Shown: positions 2,802-25,202, counted from the stretch's first letter. The stretch is DNA of 64,000 nt from Candidatus Angelobacter sp. (GCA_036491195.1 DASXCL010000055.1:23994-87993); one strand, 5' to 3'. Numbers and translations are program-made. The notes: generated by a model not told the origin, from the letters alone.

Positions 2802-5800
2802 CTAAAGCGGGATGGAGCAGACCACAGCCGAAAAGCCAGATACTGAAAGATCGACTGGAAGCTTAATTACTTTTCCAAAAGCTTCCACTCCTTCTGTGGC
2901 GACGTTGGAGATGGAGCTCGCGATTGATCCGAACGGGAGATTAGTGATGGAGCTCTTGACTACCGTCAAAGAGAACGACGGTGCAGAAACAGTTGTTGCC
3001 GTAGTAGTGGTAATGGAGACATCCGGTATAACTGACGCAGCCGCTTGGGCTGCTTTTGGAGCTCCTCTCTCAATGGCCTGACTGGTTAAAAAAGATCCGA
3101 TTGCCCCCTCAAAGAAACCTATGCCCTCGGAAACGCTGTTGCTGAGGAAAGCATGGGCGACCAGTCCATTGCCCAGTTTCCCATGGCTCAAGCTCTGAAC
3201 GCCGCTTTGCAGGCTGAAGTCTTCGCCACCTTTCTTGACGCAATCAAAGAATTGCCTGGCTTTACCAGGTTTCTTTGGTCCGCGTCCGGGGGCTCCGCCG
3301 CCACCACCATCATCGCCACCAGAGATCGGCGCCGGCGGCCCGCCGCCAATTAAACCGGGAAAGTCAGGAGGCAGAATTTCCGTCACAACGGTATGACATA
3401 CGAAATTGCCATGTCCGTCATCACCACATACGGTCTCAAGTCCAAACGGATCTGAGCCATTTATAGGATCATCCAGGCTATAAGCCAGTCGGTTCCAGCT
3501 CTGCGGGTTTTCAAGAGATCCAATGAGAGGATCTGCCTGCATAAACCTGCCCGTTCTTAGGCTGTAGTAGCGAGAGTATGCGTAATCGGTGGTGCTTTCG
3601 GTTTCCTGCGTGTAAGTACTGAAATTATTTCGCGTAAAGAAACCGGAGCTGTACCAAAGTTCGCCGTAGGGATAGCCGCCGCGCTCGCCGGCCTGGTTGC
3701 CGCTTGCATCGGTAACTAATCTGACGGAGAGATTGTCAGGATGATAGAAGTCAAGCGTGCCGTTCCCGCCGATGGTGACCAGATATCTGCCGTCTTCCTG
3801 GAAAACATATTCCCGGCCGGGCGTCGGCGCCGCGCTGTTATTGAGATATTCCGCGATGATATGGCCCTGGGAAAAGATATAGTACGTAACAGTCCCGTCC
3901 GTTGCGATTTTTTTTGCCCGCAGCCCGTTCCCATCATAGGCAAAGCTAGACGTGCCATTTCCGGAGAAGTTCACCAGCCTGTCGTCCGCGTCATAAGCGT
4001 AGGAAAAGTTTATGATCGGCTCCAACGTGAGATTGCCATTGGCATCGTACGTATATCCGGTGATGTGGTTGGTTGCGGCATCCACCGGAGCGGACTGGGA
4101 TGGCGCACTGCCCGCCGTTACAGTCTGGTTTGTGCGGTTGGCATATCGGTCGTAGGCAAATGACAGCCCCCATTTAGCAAACGATGCCGAGCCACTGGTA
4201 ACCGCGGTTTGCAGCCTTCTCAGCGCGTCATAGGTGTAGGTCAATGAGCGTCCCGCCTGGACATTGTCGGTTGCCTGGGTCACCTCACCATTGTTTCCGC
4301 CATTTTGCGTATGGCCGTATCCAACGCTGAACAAGGTTTGCGCCGGATTGGAGTATGACATCGAGGTCAGTTGGAAATTGTGAGGATTGAAGCCGTAGGC
4401 AGCCGTTATATTGTTCCCATAAGTAAGCCCGGTCACTTTCAGAGCTGGATTATAAGCGTAATTGCTCGCGTATGTGGTGTTAACGCCACTCTTGGTTCCC
4501 GTTACCGACGCCGAGCGCCCGAATGAATCATGATTCTGGGTAATGATGCGCCCTGACGGGTAGGTGGTGGAGGCGATCTGATTACCAAGATCATATCCGT
4601 AGCCGATGTTGTAGGTCCGGGTTGAAATTACTCGTGCGATATTGGTGGTGCGGCCGAGCAAATCATAAGAGTAGGTTTCCGAACCTAATCCGTCGGTCAT
4701 CGTAAGCAGCCGCCCGTTGTTGAAGCTGGCCGGAGCGCTGCCATAAGCATAACTCACCGTGGGAGTGGCGGGAACGCCGGTAGCGCCGACGTTATAGCTG
4801 GCCTGGGTCAAGCGGTTCATCAAGTCATAACTGTAGGTTGTCACCACGCCTCGCGCATCGGTGCGCTGCGAGGGTAAGTTAAATTGATTGAAGACGTAAT
4901 TCACGGTCCCCGATTCAGGTGTCTGTACCTGGATCGGACGCCCGGCGTCATCGTAGACATAGCTTCGCGTCTGCGATCCCTGGCTGATCTGTTTCAATTC
5001 ATCGCGAACCGTGTAAGCATATGAGGTAACTTGTGTAAGAGCATTCCCATTGGTGACGTCCGGCTCCGTTACCGCTTGAATGCGTCCCAGACTGTCCAAT
5101 TGATACAAAATCTGCTTACCCGTTGCGTCGGTAATCGTAAGCATATTGCCGGAATACGCATATGAAGTAGCCGTATTGCTAGAGACGCCATCGGCAGGCT
5201 CGATGACAGTGGTGGTTCTTGAGTTAGCATCATAGTGCGTTTCAGTGAAATCGCTGGCGCTCCCAACATAAGGTTCGCTTACTTTGAAAATGTTGCCGAT
5301 GGGATCATAGATAGTGTCTACATTTGAAATGACCGTTGCGGCATTATTGGCAATCGTCTGGCGGACCTGACGTGCAAGGCCGTCAAAGTCTGTAATGTCG
5401 CGGCGGCGATCGGTGCCTTGGACAGGTGTTTCGGCGGTAACTGTTACATTCGTATCGTCATACGCGAAGGTAATATTTTGGTTGTCAGGCCGGGTGACCT
5501 GCGTAATCCGATTGAAAGGAACATCATAGGCGAATGTTGTCTTCTGGTTGTTCTCATCGGTGAGCGTGGTTATTGTTCCGGTGAACGCATTGTACGTGAA
5601 GAACTGGCTGGTGGAGGGGCCGGAGACCGGACCGCAAATGATAGCATCAGGAAAAGCAAACTGCGTAGTCGAGGAAAAAGAAAACCGCTGCAACTGACAG
5701 ACGTTGGAATCAGCCTGGATCAGGTTGCCCAGCGAATCATAAGACCGGTGTCTGACGATTGCGCCGCTGGGCACCGCTGCATTAGTGTAAGTGGTTATTG

Positions 5801-16331: not shown

Positions 16332-16898
16332 ATGGCCGAAATCCGGTCTATCGCGGTGATCGGCGCCGGAGCCATCGGCCGCGGAATCGCCATTGCCTCC
16401 GCACTGGGGGGATACCGCACCATCCTGGAAGACATTCTTCCCGCCAGCCTGCGCAGCGCTGCCGCGGAAATGAGCGAGCATCTTTCCCGCGCCGCCGATC
16501 TTGGCGTCATCAGTCAACCTGAAGCCGCAGGCGCGTTCAGCCGCCTGGAATTTGCGTCCACCGTGGAGCAAGCTGCCCGTCAGGCTGACCTGGTGATTGA
16601 GGCGGTCCCGGAAGAGATGGAATCCAAGATCGAAATTTTTACCCTGCTCGACAAGATCTGCAAACCGGCCACCATCCTGGCGTCAAACACTTCATCGCTG
16701 AGCGTGACGGAAATCGCTTCTGTGACGTATCGTGCGCAAAAGGTCCTGGGTATGCGCTTTGCCGCACCCGTTTCTGAGGCGGGACTGCTGGAGATCGTAC
16801 GCACGCGGCAGACTGACGATGAAACCGTTACGGCATGTGCCGATGTCGGGCGGCGCATGGGCAAGAATGTTGTAGTGATTCAAGACGGCGCCGATTAG
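16332..16898 (+). CDS. 3-hydroxyacyl-CoA dehydrogenase NAD-binding domain protein (N-terminal domain only)
   Basis: 188 aa. Rossmann motif IAVIGAGAIGRGIA. EAVPEEMESKIEIF, ILASNTSSLSV and GMRFAAP are typical of the 3HCDH_N domain. There is no room for the usual C-terminal domain before the convergent gene at 16920. Confidence 0.7.
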   Translation: MAEIRSIAVIGAGAIGRGIAIASALGGYRTILEDILPASLRSAAAEMSEHLSRAADLGVISQPEAAGAFSRLEFASTVEQAARQADLVIEAVPEEMESKIEIFTLLDKICKPATILASNTSSLSVTEIASVTYRAQKVLGMRFAAPVSEAGLLEIVRTRQTDDETVTACADVGRRMGKNVVVIQDGAD

Positions 16899-17644: not shown

Positions 17645-19090
17645 CTAATTTCCAGCCGGCTTGCTGCCCATCGCCGGCAGAGGCAGCCTGCCATCCGCGC
17701 CGCTGGTTAGCGCCACGAATGCCGGGTCCTTATAGAGCGACGCAAACACCGCATCCACGCGCGCTTCCATCATCTCTTTGCTGCGCACGGATTGATAGCG
17801 TTCATACTCAAAGAAGTGGCGTTTCAACAGTGAGAGCGCTTTGTCTTTTTGCCCCAGCTGCGCATAGATGGCGGCCAGATTGTAAGAAGCGCACAGGATC
17901 TTTTCATTATCTTTTGCGATCTTCAGCGCTTCGTCGCCATGTCCATTGCCGGCCATGAAAGCTGCGGCAAAGATCAGGTTGAAGGGTTCTTTCGGATCGA
18001 GCGCCAGCGCCTGCCGCGTGTATTGATCGGCCTTCGCCTTGTCACCTTCAGAATTCCAATAGACGGCCAGGTTGCGGTAGGCCAGCGCGAGCGGAAACTC
18101 CTGCGTGGAAGATTCCATCAGCCCCAGGCCTTTTTTGAAGTCGCCTTCATGGATTGTCATCTTGCCCAGTCCATGCAGCGCCACGGCGCGCGACAGTGGA
18201 TCAGCCGGCATCGCCAGGATCGCGTTGAAGGTTGTGCGCGCTTTGTCCCACTCGCCCGTGTGGTGGCGATACAGCTCGCCCAGGTAGCGTAGCGGCGTCG
18301 GATCGTTGGGATCAAGGTTGTGCGCGGCGGTGTAATACTTCTGCGCCAGCGTGTATTTGGCGTCGTTTTCCGCCATCAGGCCCATCGACATCGTTTTCTG
18401 GATCTTTGCGCTCACCACGGGATCAAAATTCGGGCCGTCGGGCATCGCGTCGGCGTTCAAGCCAGTTACGCCCAGTTTTTTCAGTTCTTTTACCGCGTCT
18501 TTGGCTTTGCCCGGGAACATGCATTTCTGCTCGGCCACCTGTTTCAGCTCGGCAATAGCGGTCTTGCTGTCGCCGGATTTGACTTTGGACTTGGCGTCCT
18601 CCATCTTCTCCTTCACCGCAGACTCGCGCTTCTTCATTTCGCTTTCCAGCAGCTTTTCCAGGTCACCGACTTTAAGCTTGCCGTTCTTGTTTTCAAGCTT
18701 ATCCACCACCGTGCCATCGGCCTGCACCAATACCGCCACGGGAAGCTTTCCGTCCGGGACATATTTCTGCCCCAGCGCGGTCTGTGCGTCCACAATGCCC
18801 ATAGTCACGCACTGTTGCGAATAAAGCTGCAGCGTGCGCGATTCACGCAGGCTTGAGCGCTCAACCTCGTCCTTGCCGGTGGGGAACCAGTAGACGGCCA
18901 GGCCTTCTTTCACCGGCGCCTGCGGCGTAATCAGCTTCCACGGCACCTGGTAGGTCTGTTGGCTCGATCCTCCACCCATTCCGCCCATGCCTCCGCCGCC
19001 GCCGCCACCGCAGGTGGCCCACACTTGCGGGACCAGTAACACATAGACCATCAGCAGACACACGACGCGTTGGAGAAGTGAAGTTTTCAT
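17645..19090 (-). CDS. secreted TPR-repeat protein with N-terminal thioredoxin-like region
   Basis: I trimmed the start to MKTSLLQRVV (ATG 19090). Signal peptide, then a Gly/Met-rich stretch CGGGGGGGMGGMGGG, then a ~130-aa region resembling a thioredoxin-like fold (LAVYWFP...LPVAVLVQADGTVV), then multiple TPR-like helices in the C-terminal half. Confidence 0.7.
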   Translation of the reverse strand: MKTSLLQRVVCLLMVYVLLVPQVWATCGGGGGGGMGGMGGGSSQQTYQVPWKLITPQAPVKEGLAVYWFPTGKDEVERSSLRESRTLQLYSQQCVTMGIVDAQTALGQKYVPDGKLPVAVLVQADGTVVDKLENKNGKLKVGDLEKLLESEMKKRESAVKEKMEDAKSKVKSGDSKTAIAELKQVAEQKCMFPGKAKDAVKELKKLGVTGLNADAMPDGPNFDPVVSAKIQKTMSMGLMAENDAKYTLAQKYYTAAHNLDPNDPTPLRYLGELYRHHTGEWDKARTTFNAILAMPADPLSRAVALHGLGKMTIHEGDFKKGLGLMESSTQEFPLALAYRNLAVYWNSEGDKAKADQYTRQALALDPKEPFNLIFAAAFMAGNGHGDEALKIAKDNEKILCASYNLAAIYAQLGQKDKALSLLKRHFFEYERYQSVRSKEMMEARVDAVFASLYKDPAFVALTSGADGRLPLPAMGSKPAGN

Positions 19091-19425
19091 GCGGCAAATT
19101 ATACAGCAGCACTGGACGATCTGAGCGTTTTGGGGCGATAGCACCTAGATGGTGTGAAAAAACGCTTGGATAGGCGAACATTAACATGGTAGCCTTCGAA
19201 GGCCGCTCTAAATCACTCCCTTGTTAAGTTTTGTCAGGTGTCCGATCCGTGCGGCTAAGGGCTACCAAAGGGAGAACTCCTACGTCAGGTTCTTTGCGTC
19301 CGCGTCACCATTTAAGCCGACAGTTGATCGCTGTCACTCCAGAGTACCAAATTAAAGCACCACTATTCAAAACCCAATCGTGCTCCTTTGGATCACGGCA
19401 GGGTATCCTTCGATGAGGATTAGGT

Positions 19426-20475
19426 ATGAGTTCATTTAGCTGGATTCACTTGTGCGATTTGCATTTTGGACTAACTGGCCAACGTCCTCTGTGGACGAAC
19501 GTCAGGAAAGTTTTATTTGATGATCTCAGAGCGCTGCATGAGCGGTCAGGGCCGTGGCATGCCGTACTGTTCACCGGCGATCTCGCTCAGTCCGGAAAGC
19601 CGGAAGAGTTCGCGGGACTAGATGAACAAGTCCTAGGCCCTCTCTGGGAAATGATGCGTGAACTCGGATCGGAGAATGTTGTTCTCGTGCCTGTTCCGGG
19701 CAATCATGATCTCATCCGACCTGACACCAAGAAGCCGAAAGCCGCTTTACGACAGCTTTTCCGGGAAGGAGGATTCCACGAGATTGAGGAAGAATTCTGG
19801 ACTGATCCAGCCTGCGAATATCGTGAGATCGTAACTACGGCATTTGCGAATTATGACCAATGGTACGAAAGATCGCCCTTTTGCAAAAAGCACGGGTTAC
19901 AACGCGGGATTCTTCCAGGCGATATCGCTCTCAGCTTAGAGATTCCAGATGCGGTTCCTAAGTCGTCGCCGAAAAAGATAGGAATAGTGGGGATGAATAC
20001 GACGTTTCTTCAGTTAGCTCAAGGCGACTATGTAGGACGCCTCGCTTGGGATCTAAGGCAGATTCATTCTGCCTGTGGTGATGACCTAGCCGAATGGGTT
20101 CAAGCGCACGATGCTTGCGTATTACTAACCCATCACGGCCCCGACTGGCTTGATTCGCGGTCGCGCAGCGATATTTACCCTGAAATAAATCCGGCCGGCA
20201 GGTTCGCGGTACATCTTTTTGGGCATATGCATGCCAATGTGATGAGATCGACGTCGGCTGGCGGCGGACCGGTACTGCGCTACTGGCAAGGCGCTTCGAT
20301 ATTCGGATTGGAAAAATTCGGTGAGCCCCCGTCCATCGATAGACGACACGGATATACGATCGGTCGCATAGAGAGTTTGGAGCGAGCGGACCAACTCTCC
20401 GCCAATGGCCCCGACTCGCTATCAAGGACGCTAATGGGTGGAGGTTCGAGCGCGACACAGAACACTGCGTCCTAG
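19426..20475 (+). CDS. calcineurin-like metallophosphoesterase (candidate effector of the downstream NACHT protein; possibly its frameshifted N-terminus)
   Basis: 349 aa. RBS gagga is 8 nt upstream. Full MPE motif set in order: IHLCDLHFG (DxH), FTGDLAQSG (GD), VPGNHD (GNHD), LLTHHGP (H), LFGHMH (GH.H). Lies in the lower-GC islet. Confidence 0.8.
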   Translation: MSSFSWIHLCDLHFGLTGQRPLWTNVRKVLFDDLRALHERSGPWHAVLFTGDLAQSGKPEEFAGLDEQVLGPLWEMMRELGSENVVLVPVPGNHDLIRPDTKKPKAALRQLFREGGFHEIEEEFWTDPACEYREIVTTAFANYDQWYERSPFCKKHGLQRGILPGDIALSLEIPDAVPKSSPKKIGIVGMNTTFLQLAQGDYVGRLAWDLRQIHSACGDDLAEWVQAHDACVLLTHHGPDWLDSRSRSDIYPEINPAGRFAVHLFGHMHANVMRSTSAGGGPVLRYWQGASIFGLEKFGEPPSIDRRHGYTIGRIESLERADQLSANGPDSLSRTLMGGGSSATQNTAS

Positions 20476-20510
20476 ACGAACGGGACGGAGGTACCTATCC
20501 CGAGCCTTTA

Positions 20511-22928
20511 TTGGTTGCGCCAGGTGGGCAAGTCCACAGCGAACCTTCATCGCACACAAGGGCTCGTCGATCGACTTCCAACCGAGAACATCTCGTCGGT
20601 TCAGATTTGCCGCACAAGTTCGGTTGGCCTCACACACAACCCGAGTTCACAAAATTCTGTGATGCAGTTTCAAGCGCCCACAACCACATAAGGTTTGTTG
20701 AGATCCCATTTCTTAAAGATATGTCGGATGTCGAGCTGGATAATCTCTATGTTGAACCGCGTTTTAGCGCACAAGAGATTCATCCCGACACCCCACTATT
20801 CCGCTGGCCTAGCTGCTTTCAGCCGATTGATGCGATTCGCCAGAGCTCTCGGCTCGTGCTGCTGGGGGACCCGGGGTCCGGGAAATCCACCTTAGTTAGT
20901 TGTCTTGCTTGGCAGTTGTGTCGTCAGCATCCGAATCTGAGCAGCCCATGGGCAAAACACTTCGGCGGCCTGCTGCCACTGCCAATGATTCTAAGAGAGT
21001 TGCATCTGAAAGCGGATCTAACGTGGGAAGGCCTATTAGATGCTTTTCTTGAGCATCGCATTGGACGACTTTTGGGGACGCGAAAACATATCGAGGCTTT
21101 ATTAAAAGAAGGAAGAGCAATCATCTTACTCGACGGATTAGATGAGGTCGGCAACCTCAGCATCCGGCGTAAACTGCGCGACGCAGTGCATGCAGGAATG
21201 AGTGCATATCCGCTAAGTAGCTGGCTTCTGACGTCGCGCGTCGTAGGATACGAGCAAGTCCCTTTTCACATCAAAATCGAAACCGTTTCGGCGCGTTCAA
21301 ACGCTAGCGCTGAAGTTGTAGGACATACAAATCGAACCAAGAAGCTTAGGACATCAATGGCCGGGCTAAATTATATGGCACCGTTCAATGATCAGCAGAT
21401 ACGCACATTTGCCGTTAACTGGTATACGCAACATGAAAAAGACGAGGGAATGGTCCAAACAAAAGCGCAGGATTTTATTAATGCAATACGGGAAAATGAA
21501 GGTACCCAGCGCCTTGGCAGGATTCCTTACTTGCTTACCTTGATGTCGCTAATACATCACAAGAATGCCACGCTGCCACATGGCCGAACTGAGCTCTATG
21601 AGAGAATTGCGACAGCATATCTAGAATCCATCGATCTACGACGGCAGCTGAATCAGCTACCATACTCACTTGCACAAAAGAAACGATGGCTAGCCGCTGT
21701 CGCATATCGTATGCAACTGCGTCGTTCGGTTAAGGGCACGCAATCCCCGCGAGGAGATATTCTGGTCGCCCGTTCCCAAGTTCAGCAGTGGCTTCGCGCT
21801 GCGATGTCTGACTCGGGCGCCAAAGACTCTCGGACTGAATCTGACGTCCTTCTTACCTATTTTGCCCAACGCAGCGGTCTACTTTTGCCGCGAGCAGAGG
21901 GTAAATTCGCTTTCATGCATTTGTCACTTCAGGAGTATTTTGCGGCTTGCTTTTTAGAGCCCCGCCTGACCGCATCAAGATTTGGCTCGGACAATAAAAG
22001 GCTTGAGCCCTCTAACGAACAATTGCGATCATGGGCAAATTCGGAGATATGGACTGAAACCTTCGTCCTCTTGTTTGAGTTGCTTTCCGAAAAGTCTGTG
22101 GACGAGACAGAGGCGCTCCTCGATTATCTTTTCAGCGGACGACTGAAACAAGACAAAACGGGAACAGCCCTAAGTGCAGCAGGTCTATTAGCGGAATTAG
22201 CCACCGATCCGTTCGTTTTGTTGAGCGCCGAAACCCGCAGGCTGATAAGGCAGCAATGTTGGCGCTGGGTTTTTTCGCAGCGTGAAGCATCACCTTCTAG
22301 GCGGTATTATAGCCCTAACTCTAATAAGGTTATTCGCACTTTGTTAAGGGAGCATGATGGGGATCTCCGAAAGAGTTGGTTAGCCTCGTCAATCGGCATG
22401 ACCGAGCTACGACGGTTGAAGCATCTGAACCTTAGCGGATGTTTGACGCTCGCCGACCTTGCTCCTCTTAGTAACCTTAGCAAGCTTAAGTCTCTTAACC
22501 TACAGGGATGTACATCTGTCACGAATCTACGACCCCTAAAGGGGTTAGGCAATCTTGAGGCTCTATTGTTGGATGGTTGCTCGAAAATAAATAATTTAGA
22601 ACCGCTGGGAGAAATGAACAAGTTAGAATTCCTCATTATTGGTGCACCTTGCAACTTTGCTCCCCTTGCTAACATGAAGTCTCTGAAATCCATCCACTTA
22701 CACTTTCAGGATGAAAAAGCTGAAGTTGACTTCTCGCCAATAGCGAACCTACCGCAGCTTACCCTTGTGTGTGTCCCCGGGCCGTTAAGGCTTGCGTCGA
22801 ACGGGCGGGAAATACTCCAGAGTGGGACTTCGCCTGGGGTTAGAAGATTGGTAAAACAGTTAGGACCGGAGGGATTATTGGGCGAACGTTATTACCGGGC
22901 GAAGCGTGCCCAACTACTCAAGCGATAA
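20511..22928 (+). CDS. NACHT-family STAND NTPase with C-terminal leucine-rich repeats (bacterial NLR-like)
   Basis: 805 aa from a TTG start; the frame is actually open from 20343. Walker A LLGDPGSGKST (~20866-20892), Walker B AIILLDGLDEV, LLTSR, FNDQQIRTFAVNWY and IPYLLTLMSLI all fit NACHT. The C-terminus (~22400-22760) has at least 5 tandem ~22-aa LRRs (LKHLNLSGCLTLADLAPLSNLS / KLKSLNLQGCTSVTNLRPLKGLG / NLEALLLDGCSKINNLEPLGEMN / KLEFLIIG...). Confidence 0.85.
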   Translation: MVAPGGQVHSEPSSHTRARRSTSNREHLVGSDLPHKFGWPHTQPEFTKFCDAVSSAHNHIRFVEIPFLKDMSDVELDNLYVEPRFSAQEIHPDTPLFRWPSCFQPIDAIRQSSRLVLLGDPGSGKSTLVSCLAWQLCRQHPNLSSPWAKHFGGLLPLPMILRELHLKADLTWEGLLDAFLEHRIGRLLGTRKHIEALLKEGRAIILLDGLDEVGNLSIRRKLRDAVHAGMSAYPLSSWLLTSRVVGYEQVPFHIKIETVSARSNASAEVVGHTNRTKKLRTSMAGLNYMAPFNDQQIRTFAVNWYTQHEKDEGMVQTKAQDFINAIRENEGTQRLGRIPYLLTLMSLIHHKNATLPHGRTELYERIATAYLESIDLRRQLNQLPYSLAQKKRWLAAVAYRMQLRRSVKGTQSPRGDILVARSQVQQWLRAAMSDSGAKDSRTESDVLLTYFAQRSGLLLPRAEGKFAFMHLSLQEYFAACFLEPRLTASRFGSDNKRLEPSNEQLRSWANSEIWTETFVLLFELLSEKSVDETEALLDYLFSGRLKQDKTGTALSAAGLLAELATDPFVLLSAETRRLIRQQCWRWVFSQREASPSRRYYSPNSNKVIRTLLREHDGDLRKSWLASSIGMTELRRLKHLNLSGCLTLADLAPLSNLSKLKSLNLQGCTSVTNLRPLKGLGNLEALLLDGCSKINNLEPLGEMNKLEFLIIGAPCNFAPLANMKSLKSIHLHFQDEKAEVDFSPIANLPQLTLVCVPGPLRLASNGREILQSGTSPGVRRLVKQLGPEGLLGERYYRAKRAQLLKR

Positions 22929-23024
22929 TAGCGAAATAGTCCAGCATTGCCGACTGTCCCAGCTGACACGAGAAAAGGGTTGATTCCCCTTGCAATAGCG
23001 AATAAAATACGACATAATGCAAAA

Positions 23025-23052
23025 GACTATTCGGCTAAGAGGCTGAATAGTC
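23025..23052 (+). terminator. hairpin downstream of the NACHT gene (possible terminator, no U-tract)
   Basis: gactattcggc-taagag-gctgaatagtc (one mismatch), 97 nt after the stop. No T-run follows. Confidence 0.3.
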
Positions 23053-23179
23053 CTGTCCGTCCAGGCGGAACGGCGAACGGTCTTTGAAAACTTAACGGCT
23101 AGCAACTGGCAACTGGCCGAAGCAGGGTATTTTGGTACGTGGTAGTTGGTATTTGGCAAGGATTGCGACCCTCTACCGA

Positions 23180-23261
23180 CTGGGATTGGGACTGGGACTA
23201 GGTCTGGGATTGGGTGACGCCTGGATCACCCAAGCGTCACGCCTGGATCACGCCTGGATCA
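23180..23261. repeat. short tandem repeats at the right edge of the low-GC islet
   Basis: Hexamer-like run ctgggattgggactgggactaggtctgggattggg (23180-23216), followed by three copies of cgcctggatca (23219, 23240, 23251). Confidence 0.7.
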
Positions 23262-23638
23262 CCCTTGGGTTGAATGGAACAAGTGCTTTGTTTGCAACAA
23301 AAGCGCAAAAATGGGGGGTGGGTAAGGAAGATCGGGTGATCCGCAAACCGATTTACTAGAGAGTAAATTTGGCGATCGGGCGAGCGAGAAAAAAGCAACG
23401 CGATTCGAGCTGGAGAAAACGAGAAAAAGGACGGTCGACAGCCTTTTGACTGTCTTATCGAATGGCAGTTTGGCCATTGTTTTCAACAAAAGCCTTACCC
23501 CCGGGTGGGGTAGGCCGAAAATGTTACTAGAAAGGCAACAAATCGATGTTAAAAAGCCGGGGGATTTTGGCCGCGGATTTGCGCGAATCAGCAATTCCCG
23601 GGATCGCCGAAATCGATATCGCCGAGAAACGGAAGTAC

Positions 23639-24022
23639 CTACATGCGTCTTGCCGGCGCCGGTCCCGGATCAAGGATCTCCGGCTCGGTCGTACGTTTGC
23701 GGTCGCGATCAATCATTTCCGGCTCGGGTGCGCTATTCAACTGGCGCGTGGCAAAGAACACTGCTGCGGTCCAGGTGGGGAAGAGGTCGAGTCCAGGGAC
23801 AAGCTCCGCGGCAAAGGTGGGCAGAAAGGCCCAGTGCCATCCCAGCAGCTTGATGAGGATTGCGCCGACGATTACGTCCAGCCCGGTATCCAGAGGCGAG
23901 AGGCCGCCTTCAGCAAACAGGGGCATGCCCACGATCTGGATGGCGTCGGCCAGGATAGCGACGAACCAAGCTTTGCGCTGCTCCGGCGATTTGATGGTCT
24001 TGAGAAAAGCGAAGTTAAACAT
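23639..24022 (-). CDS. small integral membrane protein, function unknown
   Basis: 127 aa with three convincing hydrophobic helices (WFVAILADAIQIVGMPLF, LDVIVGAILIKLLGWHWAFL, LFPTWTAAVFFA). Preferred over the overlapping plus-strand 213-aa ORF, which reads as low-quality sequence. Confidence 0.5.
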   Translation of the reverse strand: MFNFAFLKTIKSPEQRKAWFVAILADAIQIVGMPLFAEGGLSPLDTGLDVIVGAILIKLLGWHWAFLPTFAAELVPGLDLFPTWTAAVFFATRQLNSAPEPEMIDRDRKRTTEPEILDPGPAPARRM

Positions 24023-24239
24023 AAACCGTCTCTGCTAGCTAAAAGGATACACAGCCCTGGGCGCTTCAGAACGGGATTTTTGGCCCATGGCCTTTTGTTT
24101 TTTGCTTCGCGGCTGGCCTTGCAAAAAAATCTCACCACGGATGAACACGGACGAAGCGGATTTACCAATTCAAAATCGGCCTATTGAACTTTGTTGATCC
24201 GTGTAAATCAGTGTTATCAGTGTTATCTGTGGTAAGGTT

Positions 24240-25202
24240 TTATCCCGGTTGGATGCCCACAAGCGCCATCTGGCGTCCGGTTTTTCCGCTTTCCGCCCGA
24301 TGAGAGAAGAATTTCTGCGGCTGGCACACGGTACAGTCCTTGAGCGCAGTAATGTTGTTTTCGGGCACGCCTGCGGCCAGCAACTGGCGGCGATTGGCTT
24401 CTCGCAGGTCAAGATGCACCTTAATGCAAGGATCGCCATGGCCCGGCGCGCGCTGGTTCATGAACAGCATGGGATAGCGCTCCCGCACCGCGTCCGACTC
24501 CTGCACGCGGTGGAAAAGTTCAGCAGCATAGGGAAACTGCGTATGAAAAGCTTCTTCCACCTCTTCGCCAACTTCAAAAGAGCATTGCTGGATGCCGGGC
24601 CCGATCGCGGCATGAATATCTTCCGGACGCGAGCCGAATTCCAGCCGCATGATGCCAACGCCTTTTTCCACGATGCGCTTCACTGTCCCGCGCCATCCGG
24701 CATGGAACGCGCCCACGGCTTTCTTTCTTGTATCGACCAGCAGAATTGGAAAGCAGTCTGCGGTGAGGATGCCGAGCGCCACGCCGCGAAGATCGGTGAC
24801 CAGGCCGTCGCCAACAAGTGGGCCTTGTTTAAGCAAATCATGCTTAAGTAAATCCAGCTTGCGCGAGCGCACAACATGAATGATGTCGGAATGAATCTGC
24901 CGCACCGCTACCAGCGGCCACGGCTTGCCTTTGGTAGCAGCGCCGGCGGAAAGCAGCAGAGCTTCGCGGTTGCGTTCGACGCGGTCGCGAAGATCGTCTT
25001 TGGTAAAGCCCAGATTCAGCGTGTGGCCGCCGTAAGCTGTCGAGAGGCCGCGCGTCCGCATGCTGAATCCATGTACCAGCCACGGAATGCGGCTGAGATC
25101 GGCCGCGGTAAGCAGTTCCAGCCCGGCTGACGAAGTCGCTTTGGGTGATCCAGGCTTCGCTGATTGACGCTTAAGCGACCGACGTTGCGTGAGAGCTGCC
25201 AC
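24240..25202 (-). CDS. pgeF: peptidoglycan editing factor PgeF / YfiH (DUF152, laccase-domain) family
   Basis: WLVHGFSMR, RQIHSD, TADCFPILL, AFHAGWRGT and the C-terminal CTVC...FFSHRA are the family's hallmark motifs. The exact start is uncertain. Confidence 0.85.
   Translation of the reverse strand: MAALTQRRSLKRQSAKPGSPKATSSAGLELLTAADLSRIPWLVHGFSMRTRGLSTAYGGHTLNLGFTKDDLRDRVERNREALLLSAGAATKGKPWPLVAVRQIHSDIIHVVRSRKLDLLKHDLLKQGPLVGDGLVTDLRGVALGILTADCFPILLVDTRKKAVGAFHAGWRGTVKRIVEKGVGIMRLEFGSRPEDIHAAIGPGIQQCSFEVGEEVEEAFHTQFPYAAELFHRVQESDAVRERYPMLFMNQRAPGHGDPCIKVHLDLREANRRQLLAAGVPENNITALKDCTVCQPQKFFSHRAESGKTGRQMALVGIQPG

What the first reader, a model, noticed from the sequence alone, without database searches (positions are those of the whole stretch)
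19426..22928. Metallophosphoesterase + NACHT + LRR module: a bacterial NLR-like candidate immune/conflict system in a low-GC islet
Seen in sequence:
- An ORF with the complete calcineurin-like metallophosphoesterase motif set (DLH, GD, GNHD, HH, GHMH).
- 35 nt later on the same strand, an ORF with textbook NACHT motifs (GDPGSGKST, ILLDGLDEV, LLTSR).
- A C-terminal array of ~22-aa leucine-rich repeats.

Established knowledge: STAND/NACHT NTPases with an N-terminal effector and a C-terminal repeat sensor are innate-immune switches in eukaryotes (NLRs) and in bacteria (Avs and bNACHT antiphage systems).

What is unusual here:
- The canonical NACHT-LRR sensor combination, which to my knowledge is uncommon among bacterial NACHT proteins.
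- A metallophosphoesterase as the putative effector. This fold covers Mre11-type nucleases and (cyclic) nucleotide phosphodiesterases, so the killing or abortive mechanism is not obvious.
- Location in a compositionally foreign islet between housekeeping genes.

I cannot tell from memory whether this exact architecture has been characterised experimentally.
Basis: partly seen in the sequence, partly recalled or inferred. Interest (0 to 1): 0.85.

Follow-up and report, generated by a model that had tools for sequence, protein, structure and literature searches.

The report
Frameshift-broken phosphoesterase–NACHT–LRR defence gene
The two adjacent ORFs are one bacterial NLR-like immune-type gene (phosphoesterase effector, NACHT switch, leucine-rich-repeat sensor) split by a recent 2-base insertion; this gene type is already catalogued, and a relative with a similar design has been shown to protect against phage, so it is a new member of a known kind.

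Summary
The sequence features are real: every metallophosphoesterase (MPE) motif, the NACHT Walker A/B and TSR motifs, six ~23-aa LRRs, and the lowest-GC 3.5 kb of the window. The locus is not a two-gene module. An extra "AG" at 20374-20375 (GAG to GAGAG) splits a single 1166-codon gene inside the MPE domain. At least 35 homologues (47-61% identity) are single fused proteins of about 1125-1220 aa. A sister allele (87% nt identity) reads straight through the site. dN/dS between the two alleles is 0.09, and the stretch left untranslated in the window has 13 synonymous and 0 non-synonymous changes.

The architecture is already listed in the bNACHT census of Kibby et al. [quoted passage not shown] An E. 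coli MPE+NACHT protein, DS-8, is a validated anti-phage system that needs both domains. The effector belongs to the "Calcineurin-CE" conflict-effector group, shown in PUA-Cal-HAD to hydrolyse dNDPs and NAD+. Its predicted fold is closer to nucleotide phosphodiesterases than to Mre11.

Likely function: a phage-triggered NACHT oligomer switches on nucleotide hydrolysis. This copy is probably dead.

One unexplained point: five of six independent disruptions in the family fall within codons 275-329.

The parts
19426..20373 (+). Codons 1-316 of the single gene: calcineurin-like metallophosphoesterase (Calcineurin-CE type) effector domain. Metal-binding motifs: D11/H13 (19456-19464), G51-D52 (19576-19581), GNHD 92-95 (19699-19710), H236 (20131-20133), GHMH 266-269 (20221-20232).
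   Evidence: Pfam Metallophos 35.3 bits. All family-invariant residues are kept. AF2 model pLDDT 94. Foldseek matches YydB, Rv0805, Lmo2642 and SMPDL3A better than Mre11.
20374..20375 (+). Extra 'AG' (GAG to GAGAG; equivalently 20376-20377). This is a +2 frameshift at codon 316/317, inside the conserved C-terminal strands of the MPE domain.
   Evidence: The window reads GGTCGCATAGAGAGTTTGG. Sister allele L089 reads GGTCGCATAGAGTTTGG. Removing the AG gives a gap-free 1166-aa protein that aligns end to end with fused homologues. The protein of the sister allele, P0121, reads GRIEFGASGPTLRQWPR exactly as predicted.
20374..20475 (+). Out-of-frame tail of ORF1 (33 codons plus a TAG stop). It is not family sequence.
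   Evidence: Three-frame translation compared with homologues.
20376..20510 (+). Codons 317-361 in the shifted frame: the last MPE strands (LRQWPR...NGWRFERD) and the start of the linker. There is no ATG, GTG or TTG upstream in this frame, so this stretch is not translated in the window as it stands.
   Evidence: It matches the family consensus IRxWPRxAxxDxNGWRFxxD. Against L089, codons 317-362 have 13 synonymous and 0 non-synonymous differences.
20511..20834 (+). Variable low-complexity linker followed by the conserved pre-NACHT helical segment (WPH..YC..V..AH.HIRFVEIPFLKD.SDVE.D.LYVEPRF), codons 362-469.
   Evidence: ORF2 model residues 1-32 have pLDDT below 50, followed by an ordered helix and strands. 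Conservation is shown in alignments A1 and A3. Kibby Table S1 labels the equivalent segment NNH1.
20835..21947 (+). NACHT NTPase module, codons ~470-840. Walker A GDPGSGKS is at 20865-20888, Walker B DGLDE at 21132-21146 and sensor-1 TSR at 21231-21239.
   Evidence: Pfam NACHT 24.7 bits for the window; 34 of 37 orthologues match at E<=1e-3. Top Foldseek hits are NLRP3, NOD2, NLRC4, NLRP14 and NAIP5 at E 1e-13 to 1e-8. 28% identity over 137 aa to bNACHT16, E = 5e-9.
21948..22382 (+). Helical spacer between NACHT and LRR, codons ~841-985.
   Evidence: All-helical in the AF2 model. dN/dS 0.084 against L089.
22383..22802 (+). Six leucine-rich repeats of ~20-25 aa (internalin/Roco-like, LxxLxLxxCxxLxDLxPL), codons ~986-1125. 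This is the putative sensor.
   Evidence: Pfam LRR_4 and LRR_R13L1 score above their cutoffs. PDB profile hits: internalin A at E = 3e-41 and Roco LRR at E = 6e-37. The model has six strands.
22803..22928 (+). Basic helical C-terminal tail and TAA stop.
19145..23638 (.). Low-GC islet (0.505): the gene plus its non-coding flanks. No tRNA, integrase or flanking direct repeats were found.
   Evidence: Composition. No tRNA in the window. No significant flanking repeats. No Rfam hit.

Best explanation
The interval holds ONE gene for a ~1166-aa bacterial NLR-related (bNACHT-type STAND) protein. Its parts, from N to C terminus, are:
- a calcineurin-like 'conflict effector' phosphoesterase;
- a short helical adaptor;
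- a NACHT NTPase;
- a helical spacer;
- a six-repeat LRR sensor.

In this genome (a Candidatus Angelobacter MAG, Acidobacteriota) the gene has been split very recently by a 2-nt AG duplication at codon 316/317, so the copy in the window is most likely non-functional.

For intact family members the most likely mechanism is as follows (inferred from homologues, not shown here).
1. The protein rests as an autoinhibited monomer.
2. A phage-derived or infection-derived ligand binds the LRR and helical region.
3. This allows nucleotide-dependent NACHT oligomerisation.
4. Oligomerisation clusters and activates the N-terminal phosphoesterase domains.
5. These hydrolyse nucleotide-type substrates (dNDP/dNTP-derived pools, NAD+ or a cyclic or linear nucleotide signal). 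The cell's growth or the phage's replication stops, giving an abortive-infection type outcome.

The gene travels as a stand-alone, horizontally mobile single-gene cassette with no partner gene.
For: Shown here:
- **Fused homologues.** At least 35 homologues of ~1125-1220 aa cover 91-100% of the repaired protein at 47-61% identity as single polypeptides.
- **Position of the frameshift.** It lies inside conserved MPE sequence, and a sister allele is intact at that site.
- **Selection.** dN/dS is 0.088 (dS 0.58) against that allele. The segment untranslated in the window has 13 synonymous and 0 non-synonymous changes.
- **Catalytic residues.** All catalytic and Walker residues are retained.
- **MPE domain identity.** It scores above the Pfam cutoff. 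Its best NCBIfam and PADLOC matches are the anti-phage DS8 and DS9_1 models and PDC-S60.
- **MPE relatives.** Domains 42-57% identical to it sit on EAD8, bacterial Death-like domain, nSTAND5, NACHT+HEAT and TPR proteins.
- **MPE fold.** It is closest to YydB, Rv0805, Lmo2642 and SMPDL3A (E 7e-14 to 1e-8). Mre11 scores lower, E 2e-7 and TM 0.40.
- **NACHT-LRR fold.** The model is closest to NLRP3, NOD2 and NLRC4.
- **Mobility.** Orthologues are solitary, in non-conserved contexts, and always lower in GC than their flanks.

From the literature:
- DS-8 (MPE+NACHT, E. coli) defends against phage and needs the MPE residues D52 and N84 and the Walker lysine K375.
- Calcineurin-CE in PUA-Cal-HAD converts dNDP to dNMP and cleaves NAD+ in vitro.
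Against: - No experiment exists on this family, and the trigger and substrate are unknown.
- The window's NACHT Pfam score is just below the gathering cutoff.
- The DS-8 model matches only the MPE domain, at 36 bits against an equivalog cutoff of 790, so this is not a DS-8 orthologue.
- Neither the window nor five orthologue contexts sit in recognisable defence islands.
- No copies were found on phage or IMG/VR contigs.
- PADLOC's second-best hit for the MPE domain is labelled 'endonuclease', and Mre11 is still a significant structural match, so a nuclease activity is not excluded.
- The frameshift could in principle be an error shared by assemblies of one read set.
Confidence: 0.72

Rival explanations
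1. The locus is a genuine two-gene system: a free metallophosphoesterase plus a separate NACHT-LRR protein that regulates it in trans. This is how the first reader read it.
For: Two ORFs are called in the deposited annotation. A real two-gene arrangement, with a complete 361-aa MPE followed by a separate 760-aa ORF, exists on a Pseudomonas plasmid.
Against: The break lies inside the conserved MPE fold. ORF1 ends in 33 out-of-frame residues. 45 conserved codons lie between the break and the first possible start codon, yet they show 13 synonymous and 0 non-synonymous changes against a sister allele. The sister allele and at least 35 homologues are fused across this point.
Confidence: 0.04
2. The frameshift is a sequencing or assembly artefact, and the organism carries an intact, functional gene.
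For: The source is a metagenome-assembled genome. The lesion is the only defect in 3.5 kb, and the gene otherwise looks fully constrained.
Against: The identical GAGAG is present in three assemblies made by different pipelines: the NCBI TPA MAG, a JGI contig and a Logan contig. A 2-nt insertion outside a homopolymer is not a typical short-read error. Five other family members carry unrelated single lesions (nonsense codons, an IS insertion, frameshifts), so real disruption is common in this family. I could not establish whether the three assemblies come from independent read sets.
Confidence: 0.12
3. The effector is a nuclease (Mre11/SbcD-like) that degrades phage or host DNA, rather than a small-nucleotide phosphodiesterase.
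For: The MPE domain hits a PADLOC model labelled 'Effector / Endonuclease' at E = 7e-10. Mre11 structures are significant Foldseek matches, E 2e-7.
Against: Phosphodiesterases rank higher, at E 1e-9 to 1e-8 and TM 0.43-0.53: Rv0805, Lmo2642, SMPDL3A, ASMase and GpdQ. Mre11 has TM 0.38-0.43. The nearest characterised relatives act on nucleotides: Calcineurin-CE on dNDP and NAD+, and DS-8 is likened to SMPDL3A. No Mre11 capping or DNA-binding domain is present.
Confidence: 0.15
4. The family is not antiviral. It is a STAND-type signalling or programmed-cell-death module serving another conflict or a developmental role, for example kin conflict, anti-plasmid action or a stress response.
For: There is no defence-island context in six loci. 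Hosts are soil Acidobacteriota, Armatimonadota and similar groups, where such STAND expansions have been linked to multicellular or conflict lifestyles (paper list). MPE relatives are fused to Death-like and EAD adaptor domains.
Against: The only tested protein of comparable design (DS-8) and the only tested Calcineurin-CE system both protect against phage. Several tested bNACHT proteins defend against phage. Low GC, patchy phyletic spread and frequent disruption are typical of defence genes.
Confidence: 0.12

Closest known systems
bNACHT clade 4 proteins of Kibby et al. (Cell 2023; preprint 10.1101/2022.07.19.500537). [quoted passage not shown] Entotheonella), 'Calcineurin-conf+NACHT+ImmLRR' (Methylomonas WP_026602738.1) and bNACHT16 (NNH1+NACHT+Imm-LRR).
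   Same: The domain order and almost the same domain coordinates: 14-308, 389-431, 469-858 and 1020-1061 there, against 1-345, ~410-469, 470-840 and 986-1125 here. The NACHT module aligns with bNACHT16 at 28% identity, E = 5e-9. The C-terminal sensor is an LRR.
   Different: The catalogued calcineurin-bearing members were never tested experimentally. bNACHT16 has no enzymatic effector. I did not place this protein in their tree. The window copy is frameshifted.
DS-8 (WP_032203427.1, E. coli; DefensePredictor, Science 2026, PMC13092281)
   Same: A single-protein system with an N-terminal metallophosphatase and a NACHT NTPase. The MPE domains are homologous: NCBIfam DS8 model E = 1.8e-9 over the whole MPE domain. 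Both domains are needed for phage defence. It was found outside defence islands.
   Different: The score is only 36 bits against an equivalog cutoff of 790. The NACHT and C-terminal parts do not match the DS-8 model. The paper excerpt read describes only metallophosphatase and NACHT domains for DS-8 and mentions no LRR. The phyla differ.
Calcineurin-CE effector of PUA-Cal-HAD / DS-9 (bioRxiv 10.64898/2026.01.15.699771; family defined by Nicastro et al., NAR 2023)
   Same: The same effector-domain family by best-hit criteria: DS9_1 model E = 8e-9, and relatives of the window's MPE hit both DS8 and DS9_1. The metal-binding motifs are the same.
   Different: The sensor there is a PUA-like nucleotide-binding domain with a HAD partner and filament assembly. 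Here the sensor and switch is NACHT-LRR, and no HAD gene is adjacent. The substrate of the STAND-linked version is unknown.
Animal NLRs (NLRP3, NOD2, NLRC4/NAIP)
   Same: They are the best structural matches of the NACHT-LRR model, E 1e-13 to 1e-8 over 650-950 aligned columns. They share the tripartite effector-NACHT-LRR logic.
   Different: Sequence identity is 12-15%. Animal NLRs carry adaptor domains (PYD, CARD) rather than an enzyme. The LRR here is short, six repeats, and of the internalin/Roco type.
Avs (antiviral STAND) proteins
   Same: STAND NTPases with an N-terminal effector and a C-terminal sensor. Their mechanism of oligomerisation-induced effector activation is the model used here (own knowledge).
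   Different: They belong to a different STAND clade, with TPR-like sensors and nuclease, SIR2 or other effectors. No Avs model hit was seen in PADLOC.

Membership tests
Calcineurin-like metallophosphoesterase superfamily (Pfam PF00149) | The five metal-binding motifs: DxH, GD, GNH(D/E), H, GHxH | tested here: met
   D11/H13, G51-D52, G92-N-H-D95, H236 and G266-H-M-H269 are all invariant or nearly invariant (>=90%) across 37 and 74 aligned relatives.
Calcineurin-like metallophosphoesterase superfamily (Pfam PF00149) | Profile score above the curated cutoff, and the four-layer alpha/beta sandwich fold | tested here: met
   35.3 bits against a cutoff of 21.5. AF2 pLDDT 94. 124 PDB matches at E<=1e-3; the top 50 listed are all metallophosphoesterases.
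Calcineurin-CE ('conflict effector') family (Nicastro et al. 2023) | Closest relatives are the effector domains of conflict or defence proteins, located in the effector position of multidomain sensors | tested here: met
   The best NCBIfam hits are the DS8 and DS9_1 anti-phage models, and the best PADLOC hit is PDC-S60. There are 926 cluster representatives at E<=1e-30, nearly all with the domain at the N-terminus of proteins of ~340-2400 aa. Relatives are fused to EAD8, bDLD1, nSTAND5, NACHT, HEAT and TPR domains.
Calcineurin-CE ('conflict effector') family (Nicastro et al. 2023) | Placement within the authors' family definition (their alignment or tree), and nucleotide-directed activity | not testable with these tools
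   The defining paper is not held.
NACHT clade of STAND NTPases | Walker A GxxGxGK(S/T), Walker B hhhhDGhDE with the extra acidic residues, and sensor-1 (T/S)SR | tested here: met
   GDPGSGKS 480-487, ILLDGLDE 566-573 and TSR 602-604 are invariant in the family.
NACHT clade of STAND NTPases | Pfam PF05729 at the gathering threshold | tested here: inconclusive
   The window scores 24.7 bits (23.7 when repaired) against a cutoff of 26.7. 34 of 37 orthologues match at E<=1e-3, best 1.2e-9.
NACHT clade of STAND NTPases | Structural similarity to solved NACHT proteins rather than NB-ARC or other STANDs | tested here: met
   The top 15 Foldseek hits are all animal NACHT NLRs, E 7e-13 to 9e-8. Plant NB-ARC NLRs start at E = 5e-6.
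bNACHT clade 4 (Kibby et al.) | Phylogenetic placement of the NACHT module in clade 4 | not tested
   Only indirect evidence: an identical architecture string is listed in clade 4, and there is a pairwise match to bNACHT16, E = 5e-9. No tree was built.
DS-8 anti-phage protein (NCBIfam NF053861 equivalog) | Full-length match at or above 790 bits | tested here: not met
   35.9 bits over the MPE domain only (profile positions 1-232 of 994). ORF2 gives no hit. The protein is related by effector domain and design, but it is not an orthologue.
NLR-type tripartite architecture (effector-NACHT-repeat sensor in one polypeptide) | All three modules in one open reading frame | tested here: not met
It is not met in the window as sequenced, because of the +2 frameshift at 20374-20375.
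Leucine-rich repeat sensors | Tandem LxxLxLxxN/C repeats recognised by LRR profiles | tested here: met
   LRR_4 27.8 bits against 27, and LRR_R13L1 32.5 against 27. Internalin A at E = 3e-41 with the family profile. Six repeats in the model.
Anti-phage defence system | Protection against phage on expression, with dependence on catalytic residues | not testable with these tools
   Shown only for DS-8 and PUA-Cal-HAD in the literature.
Anti-phage defence system | Enrichment next to known defence genes (typical of such systems, not defining) | tested here: not met
   Eight window neighbours gave no meaningful PADLOC hit. Five orthologue neighbourhoods are unrelated, mostly housekeeping-type or unannotated genes. 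The sample is too small for statistics.

The most novel reading that the evidence does not exclude
The disruptions of this family may not be random decay. Five of six independent single lesions fall within 55 codons (275-329), all just after the last catalytic motif of the effector domain, and all leave the NACHT-LRR reading frame intact. The five are a TAG, a TGA, two frameshifts and an ISL3 insertion, in lineages sharing 50-87% identity with the window. This could mean selection for a particular way of disarming a costly immune receptor. Possible forms are reversible on/off switching, retention of an effector-less NACHT-LRR as a decoy or regulator, or a split two-protein form.
Probability: 0.1. 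Interest if true: 0.6.

Novelty: new member of a known kind. Interest (0 to 1): 0.3.

Why it matters
The finding adds an acidobacterial subfamily to the bacterial NLR-related proteins. About 35-45 sequences are known, all of them from metagenomes or MAGs. The subfamily combines three things that have each been described separately:
- a canonical NACHT+LRR core whose predicted structure is closest to NLRP3, NOD2 and NLRC4;
- a Calcineurin-CE phosphoesterase effector;
- stand-alone residence outside defence islands.

An intact orthologue would be a reasonable candidate for two open questions. One is what an LRR-type bacterial NLR senses. The other is which nucleotide the STAND-linked calcineurin effectors destroy, a question the DS-8 authors left open.

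The window's own copy is a recently inactivated allele. Its main use is as a worked example of defence-gene turnover, and as a warning that '2-gene modules' in MAGs can be split single genes.

Tried and rejected
- **Programmed frameshifting.** The site (CGC AUA GAG AGU UUG) has no slippery heptamer, and the lesions in relatives differ in type and position. Rejected.
- **Mobile-element borders.** No tRNA in the 64 kb. No meaningful flanking direct or inverted repeats. No integrase next to the gene. No Rfam family in 18800-24300. Promoter and terminator scans were at background level.
- **Phage or virus carriage.** No tblastn hit of the MPE domain in 50,697 phage records. IMG/VR gave only distant NACHT relatives.
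- **Sequence-only PDB search with the MPE domain.** Only marginal hits (E ~0.2) to GpdQ and Rv0805. The structure-based search was needed.
- **Metagenome DNA scan to enlarge the lesion survey.** The encoding-contig look-ups are exhausted, and P0036, P0038, P0045 and P0046 remain unchecked.
- **YydB literature search.** Searching for B. subtilis YydB/YydD, the best structural match, gave nothing useful. The ShfP calcineurin paper concerns an unrelated extracellular clade.
- **P0001 look-up.** The look-up of P0001's contig failed. The locus was recovered through ORF1 instead.

Full report
**1. The observation**

ORF1 (19426-20475, +, 349 aa) and ORF2 (20511-22928, +, TTG start, 805 aa) exist as described and lie 35 nt apart.

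ORF1 contains the full calcineurin-like motif set. It matches Pfam Metallophos at 35.3 bits, against a cutoff of 21.5.

ORF2 contains GDPGSGKST, ILLDGLDEV and LLTSR. Its NACHT score of 24.7 bits is just under the 26.7-bit cutoff. Two LRR families pass their cutoffs.

The locus is the lowest-GC 3.5 kb of the window. Its GC is 0.507, against 0.562 for the rest. GC3 is 0.49-0.51, against 0.64-0.72 in seven neighbouring genes.

The neighbours are:
- an alpha-amylase/TreY-like gene;
- a 3HCDH_N gene;
- a response regulator;
- a TPR protein;
- a YfiH-type Cu-oxidase_4 protein;
- an EEP phosphatase;
- an ArsA-type ATPase.

None of them has a meaningful PADLOC hit. The 64 kb contains no tRNA. I found no flanking repeats and no Rfam family.

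**2. One gene, not two**

The reading frame of ORF2 is open well upstream of its first start codon. There it encodes LRQWPRLAIKDANGWRFERD, a sequence conserved in all relatives.

A search with a provisional fusion of the two frames returned at least 35 single proteins of ~1125-1220 aa. They cover 91-100% of the query at 47-61% identity, and most carry Metallophos, NACHT and LRR Pfam hits.

Their sequences read ...HGYSAGRIEFSGKTATIRQWPR.... The window reads ...HGYTIGRIE in frame 0 and EFGASGPTLRQWPR in frame +2. Deleting one AG from ATAGAGAGTTTGG at 20368 gives a gap-free 1166-aa protein.

Direct confirmation comes from a sister allele found in the same 90% protein cluster: P0121 on contig L089, 87% nt identity, with a syntenic downstream flank. 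It has GGTCGCATAGAGTTTGG and reads GRIEFGASGPTLRQWPR.

The same GAGAG is present in the NCBI MAG, a JGI contig and a Logan contig. An assembler artefact is therefore unlikely. I cannot show that the three read sets are independent.

The source is a Candidatus Angelobacter sp. MAG.

**3. The lesion is recent**

Between the window allele and L089, dN/dS is 0.088 and dS is 0.58. For the NACHT module alone, dN/dS is 0.034.

Codons 317-362 cannot be translated in the window as it stands. They show 13 synonymous and 0 non-synonymous differences.

Every residue that is invariant in the family is retained in the window's copy. The gene therefore evolved as one constrained ORF until very recently. The window copy is best described as a fresh pseudogene or a segregating null allele.

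**4. What the parts are**

*Effector domain.* The AF2 model of residues 1-316 is confident (pLDDT 94, pTM 0.92). Its Foldseek matches in the PDB rank as follows:

| Match | E-value | TM-score (query) |
|---|---|---|
| B. subtilis YydB integrative model | 7e-14 | 0.61 |
| Rv0805, Lmo2642, SMPDL3A/B, acid sphingomyelinase, GpdQ | 1e-9 to 2e-7 | 0.43-0.53 |
| Mre11 | 2e-7 or weaker | 0.38-0.43 |

In NCBIfam the only hits are the anti-phage DS8 and DS9_1 models. In PADLOC the hits are PDC-S60 and an 'Effector/Endonuclease' model.

A full scan of 1.84 billion representatives found 926 relatives at E<=1e-30. Almost all carry this domain at the N-terminus of longer proteins of roughly 340-2400 aa.

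Sampled relatives, 42-57% identical in the MPE domain, carry:
- EAD8;
- a bacterial Death-like domain;
- nSTAND5;
- NACHT+HEAT;
- TPR;
- PF24406.

. This is the mix-and-match pattern of a conflict-system effector. It corresponds to what the Aravind group calls Calcineurin-CE or 'Calcineurin-conf'.

*NACHT-LRR part.* The AF2 model of ORF2 has pLDDT 86. Its best PDB matches are NLRP3, NOD2, NLRC4, NLRP14 and NAIP5, at E 1e-13 to 1e-8. Plant NB-ARC NLRs lag behind at E 5e-6 or weaker.

34 of 37 orthologues hit Pfam NACHT. The N-terminal half of the NACHT module aligns with bNACHT16 at 28% identity, E = 5e-9.

The six LRRs are of the internalin/Roco type, E = 3e-41 with the family profile.

**5. 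Context and distribution**

Full-length orthologues among GTDB representative genomes were found in only four MAGs:
- one Acidobacteria bacterium;
- one Pyrinomonadaceae;
- one Blastocatellia;
- one Armatimonadota.

The nearest NACHT-LRR relatives there lack a detectable MPE domain.

Five orthologue neighbourhoods are unrelated to each other. The gene stands alone in each. In one it sits inside a pyrimidine-biosynthesis cluster, and in another just after mutL. No HAD or other conserved partner gene is present.

In all 12 loci for which I have DNA, the gene is 4-16 GC points below its flanks.

Six plasmids carry distant MPE relatives. No phage record does.

The picture is a horizontally moving single-gene cassette that is not tied to defence islands.

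**6. Comparison with what is known**

Kibby et al. list the following in their Table S1, all in clade 4:
[quoted passage not shown] Entotheonella), with domain coordinates nearly identical to ours;
- 'Calcineurin-conf+NACHT+ImmLRR' (Methylomonas);
- the LRR-bearing bNACHT16.

They name calcineurin-like phosphoesterases among NACHT effectors.

DefensePredictor validated DS-8, an E. coli metallophosphatase+NACHT protein. The D52A, N84A and K375A mutations abolish defence. The authors likened its MPE to SMPDL3A.

The PUA-Cal-HAD study showed that Calcineurin-CE converts dNDP to dNMP and cleaves NAD+ in vitro. The outcome is dNTP collapse and abortive infection.

This protein is not a DS-8 orthologue. 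It scores 36 bits against a 790-bit cutoff, and only the MPE domain matches.

**7. Mechanism**

Shown here: the domain composition, intact catalytic and NTPase motifs, NLR-like and phosphodiesterase-like folds, single-gene organisation, and purifying selection.

Inferred by analogy with NLRs, Avs, bNACHT, DS-8 and PUA-Cal-HAD:
1. A ligand binds the LRR and helical region.
2. The NACHT module oligomerises.
3. The MPE domains are activated by proximity.
4. Nucleotide-type substrates are hydrolysed.
5. Growth or replication arrests.

Both the trigger and the substrate are unknown.

**8. An unexplained pattern**

While tracing partial homologues I found five further disrupted family members. Each carries exactly one lesion.

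| Locus | Lesion | Codon (repaired-window numbering) |
|---|---|---|
| window | +2 frameshift (AG) | 316/317 |
| L089 | TAG (TCG in the window) | 275 |
| L092 | frameshift in a G5C6 run | ~282 |
| L093 | ISL3 transposase end abutting the gene (PF01610, 28 bits) | ~320 |
| L176 | TGA replacing the invariant R329 | 329 |
| L174/L175 | frameshift, seen in two samples | ~638 |

Five of the six lesions lie in 55 of 1166 codons. All five fall just after the last catalytic motif.

Under a uniform model this has P ~1e-4. With the window excluded, P is 2e-3.

The test is post hoc, and ascertainment is incomplete. Four partial proteins could not be checked. I therefore report the pattern as unexplained, not as a finding.

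**9. Verdict**

The locus is a single gene, recently frameshifted, of an architecture already catalogued. A protein of comparable design has been validated experimentally.

It is a new member of a known kind, of modest interest.

Noticed in passing
L089:519-521; L092:~3956-3963; L093:1-143; L176:1433-1435; L174:~5530-5572: Five other members of the same family are each disrupted by one independent lesion (TAG, frameshift in a G5C6 run, ISL3 insertion, TGA at the invariant Arg, frameshift). With the window's lesion, five of six fall within codons 275-329, just after the last catalytic motif of the MPE domain (P ~1e-4 under a uniform model, post hoc).
   Followed up: partly
L174:3135-3593 and L175:1339-1797: A small (152 aa) TIR_2-domain gene lies 33 nt upstream of the MPE-NACHT-LRR orthologue, on the same strand, in contigs from two samples. 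It may be a second effector or an independent defence gene.
   Followed up: no
L088:7986-11295 (Pseudomonas sp. HR96 plasmid NZ_CP139142.1): A genuine two-gene variant: a complete 361-aa MPE of this family, overlapped by a 760-aa ORF with no Pfam hit and no similarity to the window's NACHT-LRR. It sits next to a tyrosine recombinase and umuDC on a plasmid.
   Followed up: partly
window 16332-16898 (+): This 3-hydroxyacyl-CoA dehydrogenase ORF has only the NAD-binding domain (188 aa, PF02737). A convergent response-regulator gene starts 22 nt after its stop, so the usual C-terminal domain is missing. It may be a truncated gene.
   Followed up: no
window 22929-23638: About 700 nt of apparently non-coding DNA lies downstream of the gene. 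It holds a degenerate hexanucleotide run (GGGATT/GGGACT..., ~23172-23210) and three copies of TGGATCACGCC-type 21-mers (23211-23264). It is partly conserved (81%) in the sister contig L089.
   Followed up: no
L084:8469-16833 (= L002, Pyrinomonadaceae MAG): The orthologue is inserted within a pyrimidine-biosynthesis cluster: pyrD and pyrF upstream, and pyrR-like, pyrB and pyrC-like genes downstream. This is a clear case of a lone defence-type gene dropped into a housekeeping operon region.
   Followed up: no
L001-L003, L015, L081, L085, L086, L089, L092, L094, L174, L176: In all 12 loci with DNA, the family gene has lower GC than its flanks, by 4-16 points. This holds even where the gene has clearly been resident for a long time (dS 0.58 between the window and L089 at a syntenic site).
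   Followed up: yes
model of window 19426-20373: The best structural match of the MPE domain is the B. subtilis YydB subunit of a YydD-YydB integrative model (9a6c_B, E = 7e-14, TM 0.61). This hints that the uncharacterised yydB-yydD pair may be a related effector plus ATPase system.
   Followed up: no
window 17645-19144 (-): The upstream neighbour is a 499-aa TPR protein with a hydrophobic N-terminal segment followed by a Gly-rich run (CGGGGGGGMGGMGGG). Its function is unknown and it is not linked to the finding.
   Followed up: no
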